Of a DNA stretch of 64,000 nucleotides, positions 10,445 through 40,621 are shown one piece after another. The stretch spans positions 4,480,001 through 4,544,000 of the forward strand of contig OZ251518.1 in the NCBI GenBank assembly GCA_965242965.1, given 5' to 3'. The notes beneath the pieces are model-generated. The model was given only the letters and a program-made list of their open reading frames with translations. It did no database searches and had not been told where the DNA came from. Position numbers and translations under genes: made by a program. The stretch comes from Candidatus Poribacteria bacterium. GTDB taxonomy: Bacteria > Poribacteria > WGA-4E > WGA-3G. The first letter of the stretch is position 1. Every line of letters starts with the position of its first letter.

Positions 10445-10703
10445 AGTAGGAGAGACCTCCCGGTCTCGACTCCCCAGTAGGAGAGACCTCCTGGTCTCGA
10501 TTTCTGCCTTGATATGCGTATCGGGACAAGGATGTCCCGCCTACCCGGTCCATCGGGACAAGGATGTCCCTCCTACCCGTATCAACACCTCGGTAGGCGA
10601 GACCTCCCGGTCTCGATGCATCCCAGGCTCGCTGCTTGCTGTGTGTATCGGGACAAGGATGTCCCTCCTACCCAGTCTATCGGGACAAGGATGTCCCTCC
10701 TAC
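10445..10703. repeat. REP cluster (GTAGGAGAGACCTCCTGGTCTCGA and GTAGGAGGGACATCCTTGTCCCGA families)
   Basis: Multiple copies in both orientations. Confidence 0.9.
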
Positions 10704-10745
10704 CCAAAACGAGGCCCCACTAACAAAATCGCGAAAGACAAAAAA

Positions 10746-14736: not shown

Positions 14737-15034
14737 TAGGGCGAGGGCCTGTCCCTCGCCACCGTGAATGCAGGGAGTAGGAGAGACTCCTGGTCTCGAT
14801 GCTTGCTGTGGTTATCGGGACAAGGATGTCCCTCCTACCTGTAGGCGAGACCTCCCAGTCTCGATTTCCCGCGTTGCCTATCGGGACAAGGATGTCCCTC
14901 TACCCGTAGGCGAGACCTCCCAGTCTCGATTTCCCGCGTTGCCTATCGGGACAAGGATGTCCCTCTACCCGTAGGCGAGACCTCCCAGTCTCGATTTCCC
15001 GCGTTGCCTATCGGGACAAGGATGTCCCTCCTAC
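14737..15034. repeat. Tandem 65-bp units of two inverted REPs
   Basis: gtaggcgagacctcccagtctcgatttcccgcgttgcctatcgggacaaggatgtccctc x3. Confidence 0.9.
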
Positions 15035-22349: not shown

Positions 22350-25300
22350 TCAATTCCGCGCTTCGGGAATAACCGTCAACATCACCCGAACCCCATCCCG
22401 CAAGACGACAACTTCAACCGATTCTCCGATTTTCACCGCATCCAAAGCGTAGGTGTAATCGTAGATATTGGCAATCTGTTGCCCGCCAAATTTGATAATC
22501 ACATCGCCGCCTTTTAACCCTGCTTTATCGGCGGGACCGCCGGCGCGGACACCGGAGAGTTTCACGCCGGCAGTATCGGTGCTATAATCGGGAATAGTGC
22601 CTAAGTAAGCGCGAAGCGTGTCGCGCGAACCGCCGCCCGACTGACTCCGCTCAACTTCAACGTATTCGGGACGTTCCGCCGCAGCCGCGATGTCTAAAAT
22701 CATGCTGTTTACCAACGCAACCACGCGCTCCATGCCTTCATAGTTGAGGTGCTCCACGTCATCGGTGGGACGGTGGTAATCCTCGTGGGCACCGGTGAAG
22801 AAATTCAGCACCGGCACTTTTTTCGGATAGAACGCCGTCACATCGGTTGGCAAATACGGATCCGCCTGCAAGGTCAGGTTGAAACCGACAGGGACATTCT
22901 GCTTCTCAATCAGCGCGGGCCAGGCATTCGATGAGCCAACGCCTTGTAGGATCAGGGTGTTCTCTTCCAGCCGTCCCACCATATCAAAATTGAGATACGC
23001 GGTGATCTGCTCCAACGGCACCACAGGATTTTCAGCGAAGTAAGAAGAGCCGATGATTCCGATTTCTTCCCCAGACCAGAGTGCGAAGATGATGCCTCTT
23101 GCACGTGTTTCGGGCGTTTTGCTGAGTCGCTCCGCCAATTCTAAAACGACAGCGGTGCCGGAGGCGTTGTCATCTGCACCGTTGTGAATCTGTCCTTCTT
23201 CGCCTTTCCGTGCGAGTGAACCTATTTCGCCGTAGCCGAGTCCGTCATAGTGCGCGCCGATGACGATGTATTCTGTATCAGGATGGGAGCCTGCTGCATC
23301 GGGACCGGGGGGCTCGCCTACAGCATCGAGACCGGAGGGCTCGCCTACAGCATCGAGACCAGAGGGCTCTCCTACGGGGAGTCGAGACCGGGAGGTCTCT
23401 CCTACGGGACTGACAGGCGGTAGCAACGCAATCACGTTCCGAGCGGTTTTCTTCACTTTTTCGACCGAAACGGTGATTTTGATAGTGACATCGGGCAGCG
23501 GAAATTGCCCGATAAAATGCGGATTCTCCACATCAAGTCCGGCTTGAACCTCTTTGAGTTGCTTTCCTGCGGGCGCGAACAGCGCGTTCGCCACGGTATC
23601 GCTGATGGAGGCGGCGACGATGCCGGAATCAGCGAGGCTGTTATCAAAATCCAGCGGAATCAGTTTGCCGGCATTGGGCGAATTCGGTCCGGCGACAACG
23701 AGGAACGCCTTCGCGCCGCGTTCCCGCGCCTGCATCGCCTTATAGCGGAGTCCGGCGTATCTATTGAGTTCCTGCCGACGTTCAGGTTCAACTTCTTCGG
23801 GGACATACCGGAGTGCGAGGACGATTTTGTCGGTGACATCAATGCCGGCGTAGGCATCGTAGCCGACTCCCATTTCACCGGGGACGGTGAGTCCGTATCC
23901 GACGAAAACGACTTCGCCTTCAACTACGCCGTTTCGCGAAAAAGAGAGCGGCATAAAGTCAGTTTCCACGCCAAATTCCAATGTTTCGTTTGTTTTTTGT
24001 GTGTGTCCCGCGTGCTGTCCGTCCTCTGTCGGCCGCGTGAGCCAGAAGCGATTTTCGTTTGGAATGAGTTTTCTGCCTGCGGTGAATTGGAATTTTTGAA
24101 AGTAGGCGGATTCAGAGGGCTCTCCCAATACCGCGGGATCGCGGGGGACAGGCCCCCGCGCTACGGTAGACGGCCGTTTCCCTTTCACCGTAGGGCGAGG
24201 GCCTGTCCCTCGCCATGCATCGGCAGAGTCAGAGGGCTCTTCTAAGACCGAGGGATCGCGGGGGACAGGCCCCCGCGCTACGGTAGACGGCTGTTTCCCT
24301 TTCACCGTAGGGCGAGGGCCTGTCCCTCGCCATGCCTCGGAATCCGAAGAATCTCCTACCGGTATCAGGCCCAACTCCTTAAACTGTTCGGCGATGTAAT
24401 TTGCCGCCTGTTTCGCGCCATCGGAGCCTGTCATCCTGCCTTCCAATGCATCGTCGGCAAGGAATTCAATATGCTTTCGGAGGCTGGTTTGCGTTCCGTT
24501 TGCTGGAGCGAGTTCATCATCCGGGACGTTCGTGTGCGCGCTTTCCGGTGCCGCCGCTAACGCCGATAATGCGGCTTGATGATTCCACGCCGCCAGATAG
24601 AGCTGCGAAACATCTTGGCTGTTGCGGTTTGATGTCCAGCACAGTGTGTTTCCATCAGGCGAGAAGACCGGGAGTCCATCGAACCCCTCTGTGTGCGTCA
24701 CGCGGATGGGTTCGTGCCGCCCGGCGGCATCCACCAAAAATAACTCAAAGTTGGAAAACCCGAACTTGTTGGAGGCGAAGATGACATACGCGCCGGAGGG
24801 ATGGAAATAGGGTGCCCATGACATGCTGTCAAAATCGGTGAGTCGTCTCACGCGCGAGCCGTCCGTGCGCATCGTGTAGATGTCGGATTTACTTCCATCG
24901 GGTGTGAAGTGCCGCCAGACGATGTGTTGCCCATCGGGTGTAAAAAAGGGACCGCCGTCGTAACCCGGCTTATCTGTCAACCGCTGCTGGTTTGAGCCAT
25001 CGGCGTTCATGATGTAAATTTCGCCGAAATAGGCAGGATCGACTTCGAGCTGCTTCAATTCCTTCGGTGACAACCCGCTTTTGGGATATGCATCGCGCAG
25101 GGAGCAGAAAACGATGCGCGTGCCATCAGGCGAGTAAGATGCCTCCGCATCGTAGCCGGGGGCATCTGTCAACTGCTCAAGCTTACTTCCATCGCGCTTG
25201 GCAGAGAAAATGTCCATCGCCTCATCGTAATCCCAACTATAGCGGCGTTCCTTTCCCGACGCGCGAAATTCCAGTTCCTCCGCCTGCTTAGCAGAGGCGA

Positions 25301-25625
25301 ATATATCGTGGTGCGTTGAGGCGTAAAGCACTTCATCGGTGCCGGGGCGAAAGAAGGCGCACGTCGTCTTCCCAACGCCGGTTGACACGCGGTGCGTATC
25401 GCCGCTCTTCAAATCCATGAGATAGATCTGGTAGAACGGGTTGTCGGGTTCACGTTCGCTCTGGAAGATGAGCGCGGTGCCGTTTTCGGAAAAGTATCCT
25501 TCTCCGGCGCGCTTGCCGCTGTAAGTTAATTGCCGCGTGTTGTCGAGGAATTGTGATTCTTCGGCAGCCGCGGAAATGGTGAAGCACAGCGCGCAAAGCA
25601 CGCCTATCCATGTTATGAAACGCAT
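22350..25625 (-). CDS. M28 family aminopeptidase with TolB-like PD40 propeller, PA and PDZ domains; carries two in-frame REP insertions
   Basis: SPDG repeats; GAHYD, GADDNASG, SGEE, NFDMVG, DYHRPTD; PDZ YLGTIPD..GPADKAGLKGGDVI. Confidence 0.88.
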   Translation of the reverse strand: MRFITWIGVLCALCFTISAAAEESQFLDNTRQLTYSGKRAGEGYFSENGTALIFQSEREPDNPFYQIYLMDLKSGDTHRVSTGVGKTTCAFFRPGTDEVLYASTHHDIFASAKQAEELEFRASGKERRYSWDYDEAMDIFSAKRDGSKLEQLTDAPGYDAEASYSPDGTRIVFCSLRDAYPKSGLSPKELKQLEVDPAYFGEIYIMNADGSNQQRLTDKPGYDGGPFFTPDGQHIVWRHFTPDGSKSDIYTMRTDGSRVRRLTDFDSMSWAPYFHPSGAYVIFASNKFGFSNFELFLVDAAGRHEPIRVTHTEGFDGLPVFSPDGNTLCWTSNRNSQDVSQLYLAAWNHQAALSALAAAPESAHTNVPDDELAPANGTQTSLRKHIEFLADDALEGRMTGSDGAKQAANYIAEQFKELGLIPVGDSSDSEAWRGTGPRPTVKGKQPSTVARGPVPRDPSVLEEPSDSADAWRGTGPRPTVKGKRPSTVARGPVPRDPAVLGEPSESAYFQKFQFTAGRKLIPNENRFWLTRPTEDGQHAGHTQKTNETLEFGVETDFMPLSFSRNGVVEGEVVFVGYGLTVPGEMGVGYDAYAGIDVTDKIVLALRYVPEEVEPERRQELNRYAGLRYKAMQARERGAKAFLVVAGPNSPNAGKLIPLDFDNSLADSGIVAASISDTVANALFAPAGKQLKEVQAGLDVENPHFIGQFPLPDVTIKITVSVEKVKKTARNVIALLPPVSPVGETSRSRLPVGEPSGLDAVGEPSGLDAVGEPPGPDAAGSHPDTEYIVIGAHYDGLGYGEIGSLARKGEEGQIHNGADDNASGTAVVLELAERLSKTPETRARGIIFALWSGEEIGIIGSSYFAENPVVPLEQITAYLNFDMVGRLEENTLILQGVGSSNAWPALIEKQNVPVGFNLTLQADPYLPTDVTAFYPKKVPVLNFFTGAHEDYHRPTDDVEHLNYEGMERVVALVNSMILDIAAAAERPEYVEVERSQSGGGSRDTLRAYLGTIPDYSTDTAGVKLSGVRAGGPADKAGLKGGDVIIKFGGQQIANIYDYTYALDAVKIGESVEVVVLRDGVRVMLTVIPEARN

Positions 25626-38114: not shown

Positions 38115-38140
38115 GTTTTTTGAAAGGAATCATAACAACA

Positions 38141-40621
38141 ATGCGATTTACCTATTTTTGGCCCGCATGGGCAGTAGCACTCGGCATTCTCATCGCTATT
38201 GGCGTGACAACGTTCGTGTATCTGCGCATCGCTCGGCCGCTGCAACCGCGGCACACATTCTTACTGATTACACTGCGGATATGCGCCGTGGCGATGCTGC
38301 TCGGCTGCCTATTAGCACCTGTCACCATCGAAAAACGGGACATCACACCCCCGACGCATCTCGCCGTGTTAGTGGATACCTCGCAGAGCATGCAGTTGAC
38401 AGATGCAGGAAACGTGTCACGACTCAATCAAGTCAAGGAACTGCTATTTGGGGACAGCGATGGAGAAAACGCGACCCCTTTCCTTCACTCCCTTACTGAC
38501 AAGTTTGAGGTGCATGTCTATCCCTTTGGCACGGAACTTCACCCGATGGTGAGTCTGGAAGAGCAGGCGCAACGGTTCAAAACGGCAGATGCGCTCACCG
38601 ATATCGGGAATGCCATCAAGCAAGCAGATGCGGCGTGGAAGGGACAACAGCGCGCCGGTATCGTGCTTATCACCGATGGCGCGCATAACGCCGGGGCACT
38701 CCCTATGGAAGCACTCGTTGCGCTGCAAATCCCTGTCTATGCTATCGGCGTGGGTGCCGTGGAGCCGCCAAAGGATATCCAGATTCAGCTGATTGACACC
38801 ACCCCTGTCGCTTACACAGGACATGAACATCTTATCCGCGCCACCATTGCGCAAACCGGGTATACCGGCCAAACGACGCGGCTCGCGCTGCGAGAGGTGA
38901 AAAGTCAGCGGCTCGTCTCTTCAGCAACGCTGACGTTTGTAGAAGGTTCGCAACAGGTTGAATTCAGACTGACACCGGCGACAGTGGGAAATTTTCAGTA
39001 TACCCTCACATTGCCGACGCTTGAGGGCGAACTGACAGCGGAAAACAACGAAAAAACCTTCGCGCTCAAGGTAGTCAAGGCGAAGCTGAACGTCTTCTAT
39101 TTAGAGGGAAGACCGCGGTGGGAGTATACGTTCCTGAAACGCGCTTTGGAACGCGACCCGGATATTGAACTGACATCGGCACTTTTATCCAAGCGACCGG
39201 ATGCGGAATCGGTGCTAAATCGTTCTGGGGGGTATTATCCGGTGGTTTCTGGTGAGTCCGGGGCATGGCGAGGGACAGGCCCTCGCCCTACGGTGAAGGA
39301 GGCGGCAGCCGGGGCTCGGCGAGGGACAGGCCCTCGCCCTACGATGGGGGAGATAGAGGCTCGGCGAGGGACAGGCCCTCGCCCTACGGTGGATGAGGCG
39401 GCAGCCGGGGCTACGGCGGCGGTTATCCAGCGATTTCCTGAAACGCGCGAAGAACTCTCCAAATACGATGTGCTGATTTTCGGTGAACTAACGGCGGAAC
39501 ATCTGACCGCGGTGCAACAACGGCTCATCGTTGAGTTCGTGGAGACAGAGGGACGCGCGGTTATCTTTCTCCCGTCGCGGAACGCGCTTAGCAGGCATGG
39601 ACTCGGCACCACCGAACTCGCGCGGCTTTTGCCTGTCTCAATTCCTGTTACGGGCTGTGAGATGTCTGAAGCAGAGTTTAACGTGCAATTGACGCAAACC
39701 GGGACGTTTCATCCGATGCTGCAACTTTCTAGTGCAAACAAACTTGCGCTGAATCGGAACGCCGCGTTATGGCGCAATCTGCCTGCACTCTCGCGGCTTT
39801 TTCGCGGTTTTCAACTGAGAGGCGGCGCGTCTGTGCTTCTGGATAGCGGAAAAGGCGAACCGGTAATGATTTTTCAAAGGACAGGCTTGGGCAAAAGTCT
39901 CCTCTTCACAGCGGAGGGTTTATGGAATTGGGGTTTCGGCGTTTCAAACTTCAAGGATGCGCGGTATCTTACCCTCTATCCGCAGTTTTGGGCACAGGCA
40001 CTCCGATGGATGGGCACCACACACTCCGACGAAAATCGGCTATACCTCACGACAGATACATCGACTTACGCGACAGGCGACGCTGTCCAAGTAACTGCGC
40101 AGGTGTATTCTGAAACGTATCAGCCGCAAGCCGATGCAACGGTTCAGATTGAGGTGACACCGCCGGTGGGAGAACCGTTCCAGCTTCGGATGCGGACGGT
40201 TTATGGGGATATCAACGAACGCGAACGGGATACAGGAGAAAACGCTGAAGAGGGACGAGCAGGGGAAGAGAACCGATACACGGCGCAATTTGAGGTGTGG
40301 GAGAAAGGGAACTATCGCATCCGCGCCACGAGCGGGACTGGCAGCACAGATAGAACCGAAATCTACGTTCAACCGCAACTCGCCGAATTGGAGGCACCGC
40401 AGTTAAATGAGGCGTTACTCAAGCGGCTCGCATCGCGAACCGGGGGTGCCTATTTCGCCATCGCCGATGCAGCACAAGTGCCTGAAAACATCGCGATTAT
40501 CCAAGACCCGGTTTTTGTCGACACCGAACGCGATATCTGGGCGCATCCACTCGTCCTCATTCTCGTCGTTGGATTGCTCGGCACAGAGTGGTTATTACGC
40601 AAACGGAACGGACTGACATAA
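38141..40621 (+). CDS. Membrane protein with vWA and glutamine-amidotransferase-like domains; in-frame REP insertion
   Basis: VLVDTSQSM, LITDG, EGRPRWEYTFLKRAL, terminal EWLLRKRNG. Confidence 0.82.
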   Translation: MRFTYFWPAWAVALGILIAIGVTTFVYLRIARPLQPRHTFLLITLRICAVAMLLGCLLAPVTIEKRDITPPTHLAVLVDTSQSMQLTDAGNVSRLNQVKELLFGDSDGENATPFLHSLTDKFEVHVYPFGTELHPMVSLEEQAQRFKTADALTDIGNAIKQADAAWKGQQRAGIVLITDGAHNAGALPMEALVALQIPVYAIGVGAVEPPKDIQIQLIDTTPVAYTGHEHLIRATIAQTGYTGQTTRLALREVKSQRLVSSATLTFVEGSQQVEFRLTPATVGNFQYTLTLPTLEGELTAENNEKTFALKVVKAKLNVFYLEGRPRWEYTFLKRALERDPDIELTSALLSKRPDAESVLNRSGGYYPVVSGESGAWRGTGPRPTVKEAAAGARRGTGPRPTMGEIEARRGTGPRPTVDEAAAGATAAVIQRFPETREELSKYDVLIFGELTAEHLTAVQQRLIVEFVETEGRAVIFLPSRNALSRHGLGTTELARLLPVSIPVTGCEMSEAEFNVQLTQTGTFHPMLQLSSANKLALNRNAALWRNLPALSRLFRGFQLRGGASVLLDSGKGEPVMIFQRTGLGKSLLFTAEGLWNWGFGVSNFKDARYLTLYPQFWAQALRWMGTTHSDENRLYLTTDTSTYATGDAVQVTAQVYSETYQPQADATVQIEVTPPVGEPFQLRMRTVYGDINERERDTGENAEEGRAGEENRYTAQFEVWEKGNYRIRATSGTGSTDRTEIYVQPQLAELEAPQLNEALLKRLASRTGGAYFAIADAAQVPENIAIIQDPVFVDTERDIWAHPLVLILVVGLLGTEWLLRKRNGLT

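What the first reader, a model, noticed from the sequence alone, without database searches (positions are those of the whole stretch)
24110..24345. REP palindromes translated in frame inside an apparently intact M28 peptidase (insertion 1)
Seen: two tandem 117-bp (39-codon) units, each carrying the same inverted REP pair that fills the intergenic regions, lie inside the ORF without breaking frame. They give about 80 aa (WRGTGPRPTVKG..TVARGPVPRD x2) between LGLIPVGD and YFQKF. The metal-ligand motifs remain intact. Known: protein-coding palindromic insertions are described for Rickettsia palindromic elements (RPEs). Inference: an independent RPE-like phenomenon driven by GTAG-REPs that remodels protein loops in this lineage.
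Basis: partly seen in the sequence, partly recalled or inferred. Interest (0 to 1): 0.8.

Follow-up and report, generated by a model that had tools for sequence, protein, structure and literature searches.

The report
REP repeats translated inside a peptidase
Short palindromic "junk" repeats that litter this sponge-associated bacterium's genome have landed in frame inside an intact zinc peptidase gene, where they appear to be read as floppy surface loops; this kind of event is already known from other bacteria.

Summary
Window 24105-24338 holds two tandem 117-nt units (93% alike). Each is a head-to-head pair of GTAG-type REP palindromes, read in frame inside a 1091-aa PD40 / PA / M28 / PDZ peptidase of a Candidatus Poribacteria genome.

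- **Lineage-specific:** at most 3 of 100 diverse homologues have any residue at the insert. Orthologues from other genera carry no REP there.
- **Variable:** 15 related proteins from other assemblies carry 2-7 REPs at the same site, always in frame.
- **Gene is functional:** dN/dS is 0.17 within the genus, and the metal ligands are intact.
- **Structure:** a confident fold (pLDDT 84) leaves only two disordered loops. One is this insert; the other is a second insert (23283-23405) made of a different GTAG REP family.
- **Genome-wide:** about 4,200-4,400 copies sit in 1,782 clusters. Thirty-nine clusters lie in frame inside 38 likely genes, including an IleRS-like tRNA synthetase, and the TAG-containing frame is never used.
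- **Distribution:** among 41 related genomes the family occurs essentially only in this genus.

In-frame GTAG REPs were already described in other phyla (Di Nocera 2013), alongside the Rickettsia RPEs. This is therefore a new, unusually rich member of a known kind. The most likely reading is tolerated selfish DNA in permissive loops.

The parts
22350..25625 (-). Intact ORF of 1091 aa: signal-peptide-like N-terminus (judged by eye), PD40 beta-propeller, PA domain, M28 catalytic domain, PDZ domain.
   Evidence: One search lists the ORF. Pfam gives Peptidase_M28 E 4e-39, PD40 E 1e-30, PDZ_2 E 3e-10, and PA at 21.5 bits, below its 23.9 cut-off. Homologues are named M28 family peptidase [Candidatus Poribacteria bacterium].
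24108..24344 (-). Insert 1, protein residues 428-506. This is the lineage-specific segment made of REP sequence and translated in frame.
   Evidence: At most 3 of 100 diverse homologues have a residue here. The model shows coil with pLDDT 31-46. No family-1 REP is present in 14 of 30 aligned orthologues.
24105..24221 (.). Tandem unit 1 (117 nt = 39 codons).
24222..24338 (.). Tandem unit 2 (117 nt, 93% identical to unit 1).
24144..24167 (-). Family-1 REP, variant A (GTAGCGCGGGGGCCTGTCCCCCGCG). Sense in the mRNA; encodes VARGPVPRD.
24261..24284 (-). Second copy of REP variant A. Sense in the mRNA.
24187..24210 (+). Family-1 REP, variant B (GTAGGGCGAGGGCCTGTCCCTCGCC). Antisense in the mRNA; encodes WRGTGPRPT.
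24304..24327 (+). Second copy of REP variant B. Antisense in the mRNA.
24216..24244 (-). Tail spacer between the two doublets (encodes EEPSDSADA). It resembles a degenerate family-2 REP. Weaker look-alikes lie at about 24333-24362 and 24115-24125.
   Evidence: Local alignment against shuffles: mid spacer reached by 3-4 of 2000 shuffles, left flank by 20 of 2000, right spacer by 69 of 2000.
23283..23405 (-). Insert 2, protein residues about 742-781. Four head-to-tail sense copies (27-nt period) of a second GTAG REP family (GTAGGAGAGACCTCC[CT]GGTCTCGAT), encoding PVGETSRSRL / PVGEPSGLDA repeats.
   Evidence: At most 6 of 100 homologues have a residue here. Coil with pLDDT 41-51. Present only in P0001-P0012, with variable length.
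22710..23288 (-). Main part of the M28 catalytic domain (residues 780-972), holding the candidate ligand positions H792, D794, D818, D819, E853, E854, D881 and H951.
24345..24500 (-). N-terminal helices of the catalytic domain (residues about 376-427), immediately upstream of insert 1.
   Evidence: The model has helices 7-20, 23-28 and 33-48 at pLDDT 97-98.
23580..23918 (-). PA (protease-associated) domain, residues 570-682.
   Evidence: The fold matches PA-domain M28 aminopeptidases 2ek8, 8acr and 6hc6.
22371..22577 (-). PDZ domain, residues 1017-1085.

Best explanation
**What it is.** Insert 1 is a small array of GTAG-type REP palindromes: two head-to-head doublets, that is REPIN-like hairpins. 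The array came to lie in a permissive surface loop of the catalytic domain of a periplasmic or secreted PA-M28 aminopeptidase.

**Why it survives (inferred).** Five of the six reading frames of this REP are stop-free. They encode Gly/Pro/Arg-rich hydrophilic peptides. An array whose length is a multiple of three is therefore read through as a disordered loop and does not disrupt the fold.

**How it changes.** The array grows, shrinks and rearranges quickly. The mechanism is inferred to be slippage or recombination between the repeats, and possibly new REP insertions beside existing ones. Selection removes every version that breaks the frame, brings the TAG of the GTAG head into frame, or hits a structured part.

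**Bottom line.** The peptide itself is most likely neutral or slightly costly passenger sequence, not a new functional module.

**Shown versus inferred.**
- Shown: REP origin, lineage specificity, frame conservation across variable copy numbers, purifying selection on the host gene, predicted disorder, and the genome-wide pattern.
- Inferred: translation, the mechanism of insertion and expansion, and neutrality.
For: **REP identity and abundance**
- There are 4173 GTAG-headed copies. The consensus is CCGTAG[C/G]GCG[G/A]GGGCCTGTCCC[C/T]CGC[G/C]AT.
- The stem-loop energy is -16 to -17.5 kcal/mol.
- There are 735 head-to-head pairs with a modal 25-nt gap, the same gap as in the insert.

**Lineage specificity**
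- At most 3 of 100 diverse homologues have a residue at insert 1.
- In the 30-sequence ortholog alignment, 16 carry family-1 REPs at site 1 and 14 do not. That includes all 11 distant orthologues.
- Ten loci from other genera have 45-57 aa there, with no REP.
- The REP family has 4365, 1075 and 622 copies in the three genomes of this genus, 2 in one other genome, and 0 in the remaining 37.

**Real and in frame elsewhere**
- Fifteen related proteins from other assemblies carry 2-7 REPs (35-146 aa) at the same site, with no frame break.
- Contigs of other runs cross both junctions.

**Host gene is functional**
- dN/dS is 0.165-0.176 within the genus and 0.04-0.08 to other genera.
- An ortholog was found in 24 of 24 same-family genomes.
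- The catalytic positions are invariant.

**Loop location**
- The model has mean pLDDT 84.3 and pTM 0.82. Its only internal low-confidence coil segments are the two REP inserts.
- The fold matches PA-M28 aminopeptidases (2ek8, E 1.3e-27).

**Selection filter**
- Among 76 REPs inside 38 likely genes, frame use is 40 / 17 / 12 / 5 / 2, and 0 for the frame containing TAG.
- Only 39 of 1782 clusters lie inside genes.
- Thirty-one of 36 host ORFs scanned have Pfam domains.
- The insert in the IleRS-like synthetase is absent from 6 orthologues of other genera.
Against: - There is no direct evidence of translation. No RNA run was listed, and no proteome is available.
- The mRNA of the insert folds into two very stable hairpins (-152.8 kcal/mol, z -9.9). 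These might hinder ribosomes or have a function of their own as RNA or DNA.
- The array has persisted across a clade with dS about 0.6, and the frame bias towards VARGPVPR is strong. Both could also mean that the peptide is useful.
- Frame counts are inflated by tandem copies and by 7 paralogous genes, so they are not independent events.
- No transposase flanked by this REP family was found, so the insertion mechanism is open.
- No contig bridges the whole insert, so the copy number is not independently checked.
- Disorder is a prediction. The model's coordinates could not be inspected, so the distance to the active site is unknown.
Confidence: 0.85

Rival explanations
1. The in-frame REP arrays have been co-opted. 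They would serve as flexible tethers or length-variable exposed loops of a secreted enzyme, for example tuning substrate access or interaction with the host matrix. Their copy-number changes would act like an in-frame contingency locus.
For: - The array is retained at the same loop in 16 of 19 proteins of the clade.
- Copy number varies widely between very close relatives, 2-7 REPs at branch lengths under 0.02.
- Two different REP families sit in two loops of one exported protein.
- There is a strong bias to one peptide frame.
Against: - Similar inserts sit in cytosolic housekeeping enzymes: an IleRS-like synthetase, PfkB kinases, an aminotransferase and UvrD.
- One subclade lacks family-1 REPs at the site and keeps an equally conserved gene.
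- The insert is predicted disordered, with no conserved non-REP residues.
- Frame bias is also expected from simple tolerance of hydrophilic Gly/Pro-rich peptides.
Confidence: 0.1
2. The gene is not read through the repeats. It would be either a recent pseudogene, or the REP hairpins would be removed or bypassed at the RNA or ribosome level, so that the REP peptides never exist.
For: The very stable hairpins in the mRNA. There is no expression data.
Against: - dN/dS of 0.17 and below.
- It is the only strong match to this peptidase listed for this genome, from a family found in 24 of 24 same-family genomes.
- All 16 REP-bearing versions keep the frame despite different REP numbers, orientations and spacers.
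- The TAG-containing frame is used 0 of 76 times. Such constraints would not exist if the repeats were removed before decoding.
Confidence: 0.03
3. Assembly artefact: REP arrays were wrongly placed or collapsed inside the gene by the assembler.
For: REPs are highly repetitive, and short-read contigs break inside them. No contig bridges the insert.
Against: - Contigs from runs of three studies run from unique coding sequence into the REP on one side, and from two studies on the other.
- Fifteen proteins from other assemblies, including contigs of 5.0-5.7 Mb, have REPs at the same codon position.
- The same-genus genome G002 has its own version.
Confidence: 0.02

Closest known systems
Intragenic GTAG/CGTC REPs (Di Nocera, De Gregorio, Rocco 2013, BMC Genomics 14:522, PMC3733652; abstract, section 15 and found passages read)
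   Same: - GTAG-headed short palindromes, mostly intergenic and often in inverted dimers.
- A minority lies wholly inside ORFs of known proteins.
- More than half of those inserts are dimers or groups. Clusters encoding 43-82 aa are reported.
- tRNA synthetases and UvrD-type helicases are among the hosts.
- The authors also argue for neutral inserts in modular proteins.
   Different: - A different phylum (Candidatus Poribacteria) and an unrelated REP sequence.
- Very high load: about 4,200-4,400 copies of one family, plus at least two further GTAG families.
- Here the same loop is followed across related genomes and shows rapid copy-number change.
- Two REP families sit in one gene.
- That paper's list of hosts (Additional file 3) was not seen.
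Rickettsia palindromic elements (RPEs; Ogata et al. 2000, recalled; cited as refs 13 and 14 in PMC3733652)
   Same: Palindromic repeats inserted in frame in functional protein genes, tolerated as extra surface segments. This is the classic case of selfish DNA in coding sequence.
   Different: - RPE-1 is longer and unrelated in sequence.
- RPE-4 and RPE-6 are CGTC-type REPs according to PMC3733652.
- The Rickettsia genomes are reduced and obligately intracellular. Here the genome is 5.7 Mb.
- Tandem arrays with changing copy number are prominent here.
REPINs and RAYT transposases (Bertels and Rainey 2011, PMC3116915; search listing and abstract only)
   Same: Two inverted REPs with a short spacer form a long hairpin. 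There are thousands of copies, vertically inherited within a lineage. The genome holds a RAYT-like Y1 transposase gene.
   Different: - The one intact RAYT-like gene is flanked by a third GTAG family, not by the family in the peptidase.
- REPINs are described as extragenic.
- Mobilisation was not tested.
PA-domain M28 aminopeptidases (PDB 2ek8 Aneurinibacillus AM-1, 8acr PaAP, 6hc6 BSAP)
   Same: The fold of residues 370-1000 matches (Foldseek E 1e-27 to 1e-22). The conserved H/D/E/D/H positions are present.
   Different: - The solved enzymes lack the PD40 propeller and the PDZ domain.
- At most 3 of 100 diverse sequence homologues (insert 1) and 6 of 100 (insert 2) have any residue at the insert positions. 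This was not checked residue by residue in the solved structures.

Membership tests
GTAG-type REP (repetitive extragenic palindrome) | GTAG tetranucleotide at one end of the repeat. | tested here: met
   All 4173 copies were collected with a GTAG head. The consensus is CCGTAG[C/G]GCG....
GTAG-type REP (repetitive extragenic palindrome) | Short (20-40 nt) imperfect palindrome able to form a stem-loop. | tested here: met
   An 8-bp stem with a 5-nt loop, at -17.5 and -16.4 kcal/mol for the two variants.
GTAG-type REP (repetitive extragenic palindrome) | High copy number, predominantly intergenic. | tested here: met
   4534 cores sit in 1782 clusters. Only 39 clusters lie inside likely genes with at least 70 codons on each side. 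Gene calls are my own coding-score proxy, not an annotation.
REPIN / RAYT system | Two REPs in inverted orientation with a short spacer, forming one long hairpin. | tested here: met
   735 head-to-head pairs with a modal gap of 25 nt. The insert RNA folds as two long hairpins, z -9.9.
REPIN / RAYT system | A cognate RAYT (Y1 tyrosine transposase) gene flanked by the same REPs. | tested here: not met
   PF01797 gives two hits in the genome. One is broken by 2 TGA. The other is flanked on both sides by a different family, GTAGTTCGGGAGC.... No family-1 REP lies within about 1.5 kb of either.
Rickettsia palindromic elements (RPE) | Sequence membership in an RPE family (RPE-1 to RPE-8, Rickettsia). 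| not tested
   No RPE sequence was compared. The head tetranucleotide is GTAG, whereas RPE-4 and RPE-6 are CGTC-type according to PMC3733652. The organism is a Poribacteria genome. This is a resemblance in behaviour only.
Rickettsia palindromic elements (RPE) | In-frame insertion in genes that stay functional. | tested here: met
   Frame is kept in 16 REP-bearing orthologues. dN/dS is 0.17. Catalytic positions are intact. Function itself was not assayed.
Peptidase family M28 | Match to the family profile above its curated cut-off. | tested here: met
   PF04389 at 134.7 bits against a cut-off of 21.3.
Peptidase family M28 | Co-catalytic zinc ligands (His, Asp, Glu, Asp, His) and the catalytic Glu. 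The assignment of roles is recalled from the Aeromonas aminopeptidase. | tested here: met
   H792, D818, E853/E854 and D881 are invariant in 101 of 101 sequences. H951 is kept in 98 of 101. The fold matches 2ek8, 8acr and 6hc6.

The most novel reading that the evidence does not exclude
REPs in this genus would act as a layered, self-seeding generator of protein-loop length variation. A first REP that lands in a permissive loop becomes a landing pad for further REPs of other families. The resulting in-frame arrays then expand and contract between strains. Exposed loops of exported proteins, and inter-domain linkers of multi-copy restriction-modification enzymes, would become hypervariable in the way contingency loci are, with selection using that variation.

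Hints:
- The 'REP1-free' allele of the sister genome is itself a degenerate family-2 REP (20 of 26 nt; 0 of 2000 shuffles reach the score).
- The spacers of the array look family-2-derived.
- Seven paralogous Type ISP enzymes carry different REP arrangements at one and the same linker.
Probability: 0.12. Interest if true: 0.65.

Novelty: new member of a known kind. Interest (0 to 1): 0.4.

Why it matters
This extends in-frame palindromic 'selfish DNA' to a new phylum of sponge-associated bacteria. It is an unusually rich natural data set:
- thousands of REPs
- about 38 host genes
- at least three GTAG families
- many related assemblies with different copy numbers at the same codon

That makes several questions measurable:
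- which protein sites tolerate 10-150 extra disordered residues
- which reading frames of a repeat are tolerated
- how fast such arrays turn over

There are also two practical points. These arrays break short-read assemblies inside genes. They also create spurious ORFs and odd low-complexity segments that annotators should recognise.

Tried and rejected
- **First structure job** (full 1091 aa, 30 close orthologues). It gave mean pLDDT 48.9, with the whole PA-M28 part below 50. It was not used. It was replaced by residues 370-1000 with 100 diverse homologues.
- **PDB sequence search**. It aligned only the C-terminal half of the catalytic domain, so it could not place the insert.
- **Database search with the 79-aa insert alone**. 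It gave 11 hits among 153 candidates. Ten are the same peptidase and one is a Type ISP enzyme. Short REP peptides do not reach significance in a database of that size, so this says nothing about how widespread REP-bearing proteins are.
- **RNA evidence.** No RNA holder was listed.
- **Bridging contigs.** No contig bridges the whole insert, as expected for short contigs in a repeat.
- **Target-site duplication.** I considered whether the insert was flanked by one, because of the similar PSxSxA pieces on both sides. The pieces are better explained as degenerate family-2 REPs. That rests on 26-31-nt alignments and stays tentative.
- **Single origin at site 1.** The tree needs 2 changes, but one origin is not ruled out by well-supported branches. 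G002 has its first REP in another frame and lacks the family-2-like layer. Independent insertion and remodelling therefore cannot be told apart.
- **Literature.** 'Poribacteria' plus 'palindromic' gave 31 papers. The 15 listed concern CRISPR or unrelated topics by title and abstract start. I found no description of REPs in Poribacteria in that one search.
Full report
**1. The observation**

The window lies at 4480001-4544000 of a 5.66-Mb contig of a two-contig genome with 54% G+C. The ORF 22350-25625 on the minus strand encodes 1091 aa. Pfam finds PD40 propeller repeats, a PA domain (just under its cut-off), Peptidase_M28 (E 4e-39) and a PDZ domain.

Inside the ORF, 24105-24221 and 24222-24338 are two direct 117-nt copies, 93% identical. 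Each is built from two inverted arms of 47-54 nt.

The core 24-mer occurs 58 times in the window with up to 3 mismatches, against 0 in 100 shuffles. The 11-nt core occurs 4534 times on the chromosome and once on the 38-kb contig.

Read in the gene's frame, the units give SSDSEA-WRGTGPRPT-VKGKQPS-TVARGPVPRD-PSVLEEPSDSADA-WRGTGPRPT-VKGKRPS-TVARGPVPRD-PAVLGEPSESA. This lies between LIPVGD and YFQKF.

**2. What the repeat is**

I collected 4173 copies with a GTAG head. Their consensus is CCGTAG[C/G]GCG[G/A]GGGCCTGTCCC[C/T]CGC[G/C]AT, and conservation stops a few bases beyond the palindrome.

There are two main variants, A and B. Both fold into an 8-bp stem with a 5-nt loop, at -17.5 and -16.4 kcal/mol.

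Neighbouring copies form 735 head-to-head pairs with a modal gap of 25 nt. The gap in the peptidase insert is also 25 nt. These are the features of GTAG-type REPs arranged as REPIN-like doublets.

As mRNA, the insert folds into two long hairpins (-152.8 kcal/mol, z -9.9).

The tail-to-tail distance in the peptidase (92 nt) is longer than the usual 60 or 72 nt. The extra sequence, and the flank to the left of the array, resemble a degenerate copy of a second GTAG REP family. The mid spacer score was reached by 3-4 of 2000 shuffles, the left flank by 20 and the right spacer by 69.

**3. Is it an insertion?**

Homologues are named M28 family peptidase of Candidatus Poribacteria. Most of the 120 listed are about 980-995 aa long.

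In an alignment of 30 orthologues:
- The 11 distant ones carry no REP at this point; 10 go straight from ...KP(V/I)GDE to SYFQ, and one (P0080) has an unrelated ~20-residue insert there.
- Sixteen closer relatives carry REP-derived peptides there.
- Three (P0015, P0016, P0018) do not.

I also aligned residues 370-1000 with 100 diverse representatives (34-55% identity), drawn from 22,531 hits. At most 3 of the 100 have any residue at protein positions 428-506.

At the DNA level the three genomes of the genus differ:
- **G002** has REP B, then REP A, then REP A. Its first REP is in a different reading frame (LARDRPSPY).
- **G001** has no family-1 REP (PVGASSGSDAYFQ).
- **Ten loci from other genera** have 45-57 aa with no REP.

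The G001 allele is not simply empty. Twenty of 26 nt match the family-2 REP, a score reached by 0 of 2000 shuffles. The ten other-genus orthologues show nothing comparable; the best is 53 of 2000 in one of 20 tests.

The family-1 REP is confined to this genus among the 41 genomes searched. Counts are 4365, 1075 and 622 copies in the genus, 2 in one other genome, and 0 in 37. G001 is fragmented and 86% complete, so its count is a lower bound.

**4. Is the gene alive, and is the insert read?**

- An ortholog was found in 24 of 24 genomes of the same family.
- Pairwise dN/dS of the aligned parts is 0.165-0.176 within the genus and 0.04-0.08 to other genera.
- The candidate M28 ligand and catalytic positions (H792, D794, D818, D819, E853, E854, D881) are invariant in 101 of 101 sequences. 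H951 is kept in 98 of 101.
- All 16 REP-bearing versions keep the frame, although they differ in REP number (2-7; 35-146 aa), orientation and spacers.
- Genome-wide, the one REP frame that puts TAG in frame is used 0 of 76 times.

These constraints are expected only if ribosomes read through the repeats. Translation is therefore strongly inferred, but it was not observed. No RNA run was listed.

Contigs from runs of three studies run from unique coding sequence into the REPs at the low-coordinate junction (23740-24162 or 23392-24162). Contigs from two studies do so at the other junction (24311-24436). None bridges the array.

**5. Where the insert sits in the protein**

The second has mean pLDDT 84.3 and pTM 0.82, with 461 of 631 residues at 90 or above. 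Its only internal segments below 50 are model residues 65-132 and 375-408, which are the two REP inserts. Both are coil.

- **Insert 1** lies between the N-terminal helices of the catalytic domain and the first long strand.
- **Insert 2** lies just before the strand that carries H792.

The fold matches PA-domain M28 aminopeptidases: 2ek8 at E 1.3e-27, plus PaAP 8acr and BSAP 6hc6. I could not inspect coordinates. 'Surface loop' therefore rests on predicted disorder and on the gap in homologues. The distance to the active site is unknown.

**6. The second insert in the same gene**

Window 23283-23405 holds four head-to-tail sense copies, with a 27-nt period, of a second GTAG family: GTAGGAGAGACCTCC[CT]GGTCTCGAT. 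That family has about 1,290-1,390 copies, depending on the pattern used. The copies encode PVGETSRSRL, PVGEPSGLDA and similar.

This insert is present only in the 12 closest proteins, with variable length. At most 6 of 100 diverse homologues have a residue there.

Relatives show two further in-frame repeat sites that our gene lacks.

**7. The genome-wide picture**

I trained a simple codon log-odds score on 490 long REP-free ORFs. With it, 39 of 1782 REP clusters lie in an open frame that has at least 70 codons and a coding score of at least 6 on both sides. They fall in 38 ORFs. At a threshold of 10 the number is 30 clusters.

Thirty-six of the 38 ORFs were scanned. The peptidase itself and a 7081-aa ORF were left out. 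Thirty-one have Pfam families at E 1e-5 or better. They include:
- a class I tRNA synthetase
- a class A penicillin-binding protein
- a UvrD helicase fused to an exonuclease
- PALP, aminotransferase, PfkB, DAGK and YjeF enzymes
- TamB
- seven paralogous Type ISP restriction-modification enzymes

The synthetase looks like IleRS by my reading of its motifs. Its insert (STAARGTGPRTHY) has a degenerate counterpart in G002 and is absent from 6 orthologues of other genera.

Frame use among the 76 REPs in these ORFs is as follows:

| Frame | Peptide | Count |
|---|---|---|
| sense-0 | VARGPVPR | 40 |
| antisense | RGTGPRxT | 17 |
| antisense | xRDRPxxY | 12 |
| antisense | GGQAPALR | 5 |
| sense-1 | SAGACPPR | 2 |
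| TAG-containing frame | (stop) | 0 |

These counts include tandem copies and paralogues, so they overstate the number of independent events.

**8. Mechanism**

Two points are shown. REPs are strongly under-represented inside genes. Those that remain are in frame, stop-free and, where tested, in loops or between domains.

The rest is inferred. Insertions or expansions occur at random or next to existing REPs. Selection keeps the harmless ones. Arrays then change length by slippage or recombination.

The transposase question is open. Pfam Y1_Tnp gives two hits. One is broken. The other is a RAYT-like gene flanked on both sides by arrays of a third GTAG family, GTAGTTCGGGAGC.... No family-1 REP lies within about 1.5 kb of either.

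**9. Comparison with what is known**

Di Nocera and co-workers (PMC3733652; abstract, section 15 and passages read) reported the following:
- GTAG and CGTC REPs lying inside ORFs of known proteins in several species.
- The most GTAG cases in Opitutus terrae, and the most CGTC cases in Rickettsia conorii.
- More than half of the inserts as dimers or groups.
- Clusters encoding 43-82 aa in Thauera and R. conorii.
- tRNA synthetases and UvrD helicases among the hosts.

The Rickettsia RPEs are the classic case (recalled; cited there). REPINs and RAYTs are described by Bertels and Rainey (PMC3116915; listing and abstract only).

The present case therefore belongs to a known kind. The following are new as far as my one search shows:
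- the phylum
- the load
- the co-occurrence of two families in one gene
- the documented copy-number turnover at one codon position
- the hint that one REP seeds the next

**10. Verdict**

Novelty is modest: a new member of a known kind. Interest is 0.4.

Noticed in passing
window 23283-23405: A second in-frame REP array sits in the same peptidase gene. It is made of four head-to-tail copies of a different GTAG family (GTAGGAGAGACCTCC[CT]GGTCTCGAT, about 1,290-1,390 copies genome-wide). It lies just before the strand carrying the first metal-ligand histidine.
   Followed up: yes
window 38120-40621 (+), repeats at 39258-39418: Another long ORF (833 aa, weak VWA_2 match) carries three in-frame family-1 REPs (RGTGPRPT x3) with a 51-nt period. 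Both flanks score as coding.
   Followed up: partly
G000 chromosome: L036, L037, L038, L043, L049, L055, L058: Seven paralogous ORFs of about 1040-1160 aa are Type ISP-like restriction-modification enzymes (coupler, N6-methylase, Type_ISP_C). All carry family-1 REPs at the same linker, between VGVSINFFVK and ARIFY(Y/F)RTDD. Number, orientation and frame differ between them. Some have a second REP site near the N-terminus.
   Followed up: partly
G000 chromosome 2046469-2049822 (L050, L069): A class I tRNA synthetase (IleRS-like by my reading) carries a single in-frame REP (STAARGTGPRTHY). The same-genus genome G002 has a degenerate version. Six orthologues from other genera have none.
   Followed up: yes
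G000 chromosome 3147583-3147918 (L032): A RAYT-like Y1 transposase gene is flanked on both sides by arrays of a third GTAG REP family (GTAGTTCGGGAGCRCCTGCTCCCGAA). A second Y1_Tnp match at 3125391-3125627 is broken by two TGA codons. Neither is flanked by the family found in the peptidase.
   Followed up: partly
window 10646-10706 and 14813-15030: Tandem repeats contain yet another palindrome (GGGACAAGGATGTCCC next to CCTAC). This is possibly a fourth GTAG-type family.
   Followed up: no
G000 contig C2 (38,183 nt): The small contig holds only 1 REP core. About 30 would be expected at chromosomal density (4534 in 5.66 Mb). It may be a plasmid, a phage or a foreign or mis-binned contig.
   Followed up: no
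alignment A1, relatives P0013, P0015, P0016, P0018: Relatives carry two further in-frame repeat expansions that our gene lacks. One is GDARLESAPT-type repeats after WLTRQT (up to 74 aa). The other is a PVGGSSGPDIE... segment inside the M28 domain.
   Followed up: no
L003 (G001), site corresponding to window about 24100-24350: The allele without family-1 REPs encodes PVGASSGSDAYFQ. Twenty of 26 nt match the family-2 REP (0 of 2000 shuffles reach that score). This suggests the loop was first colonised by a family-2 REP.
   Followed up: partly
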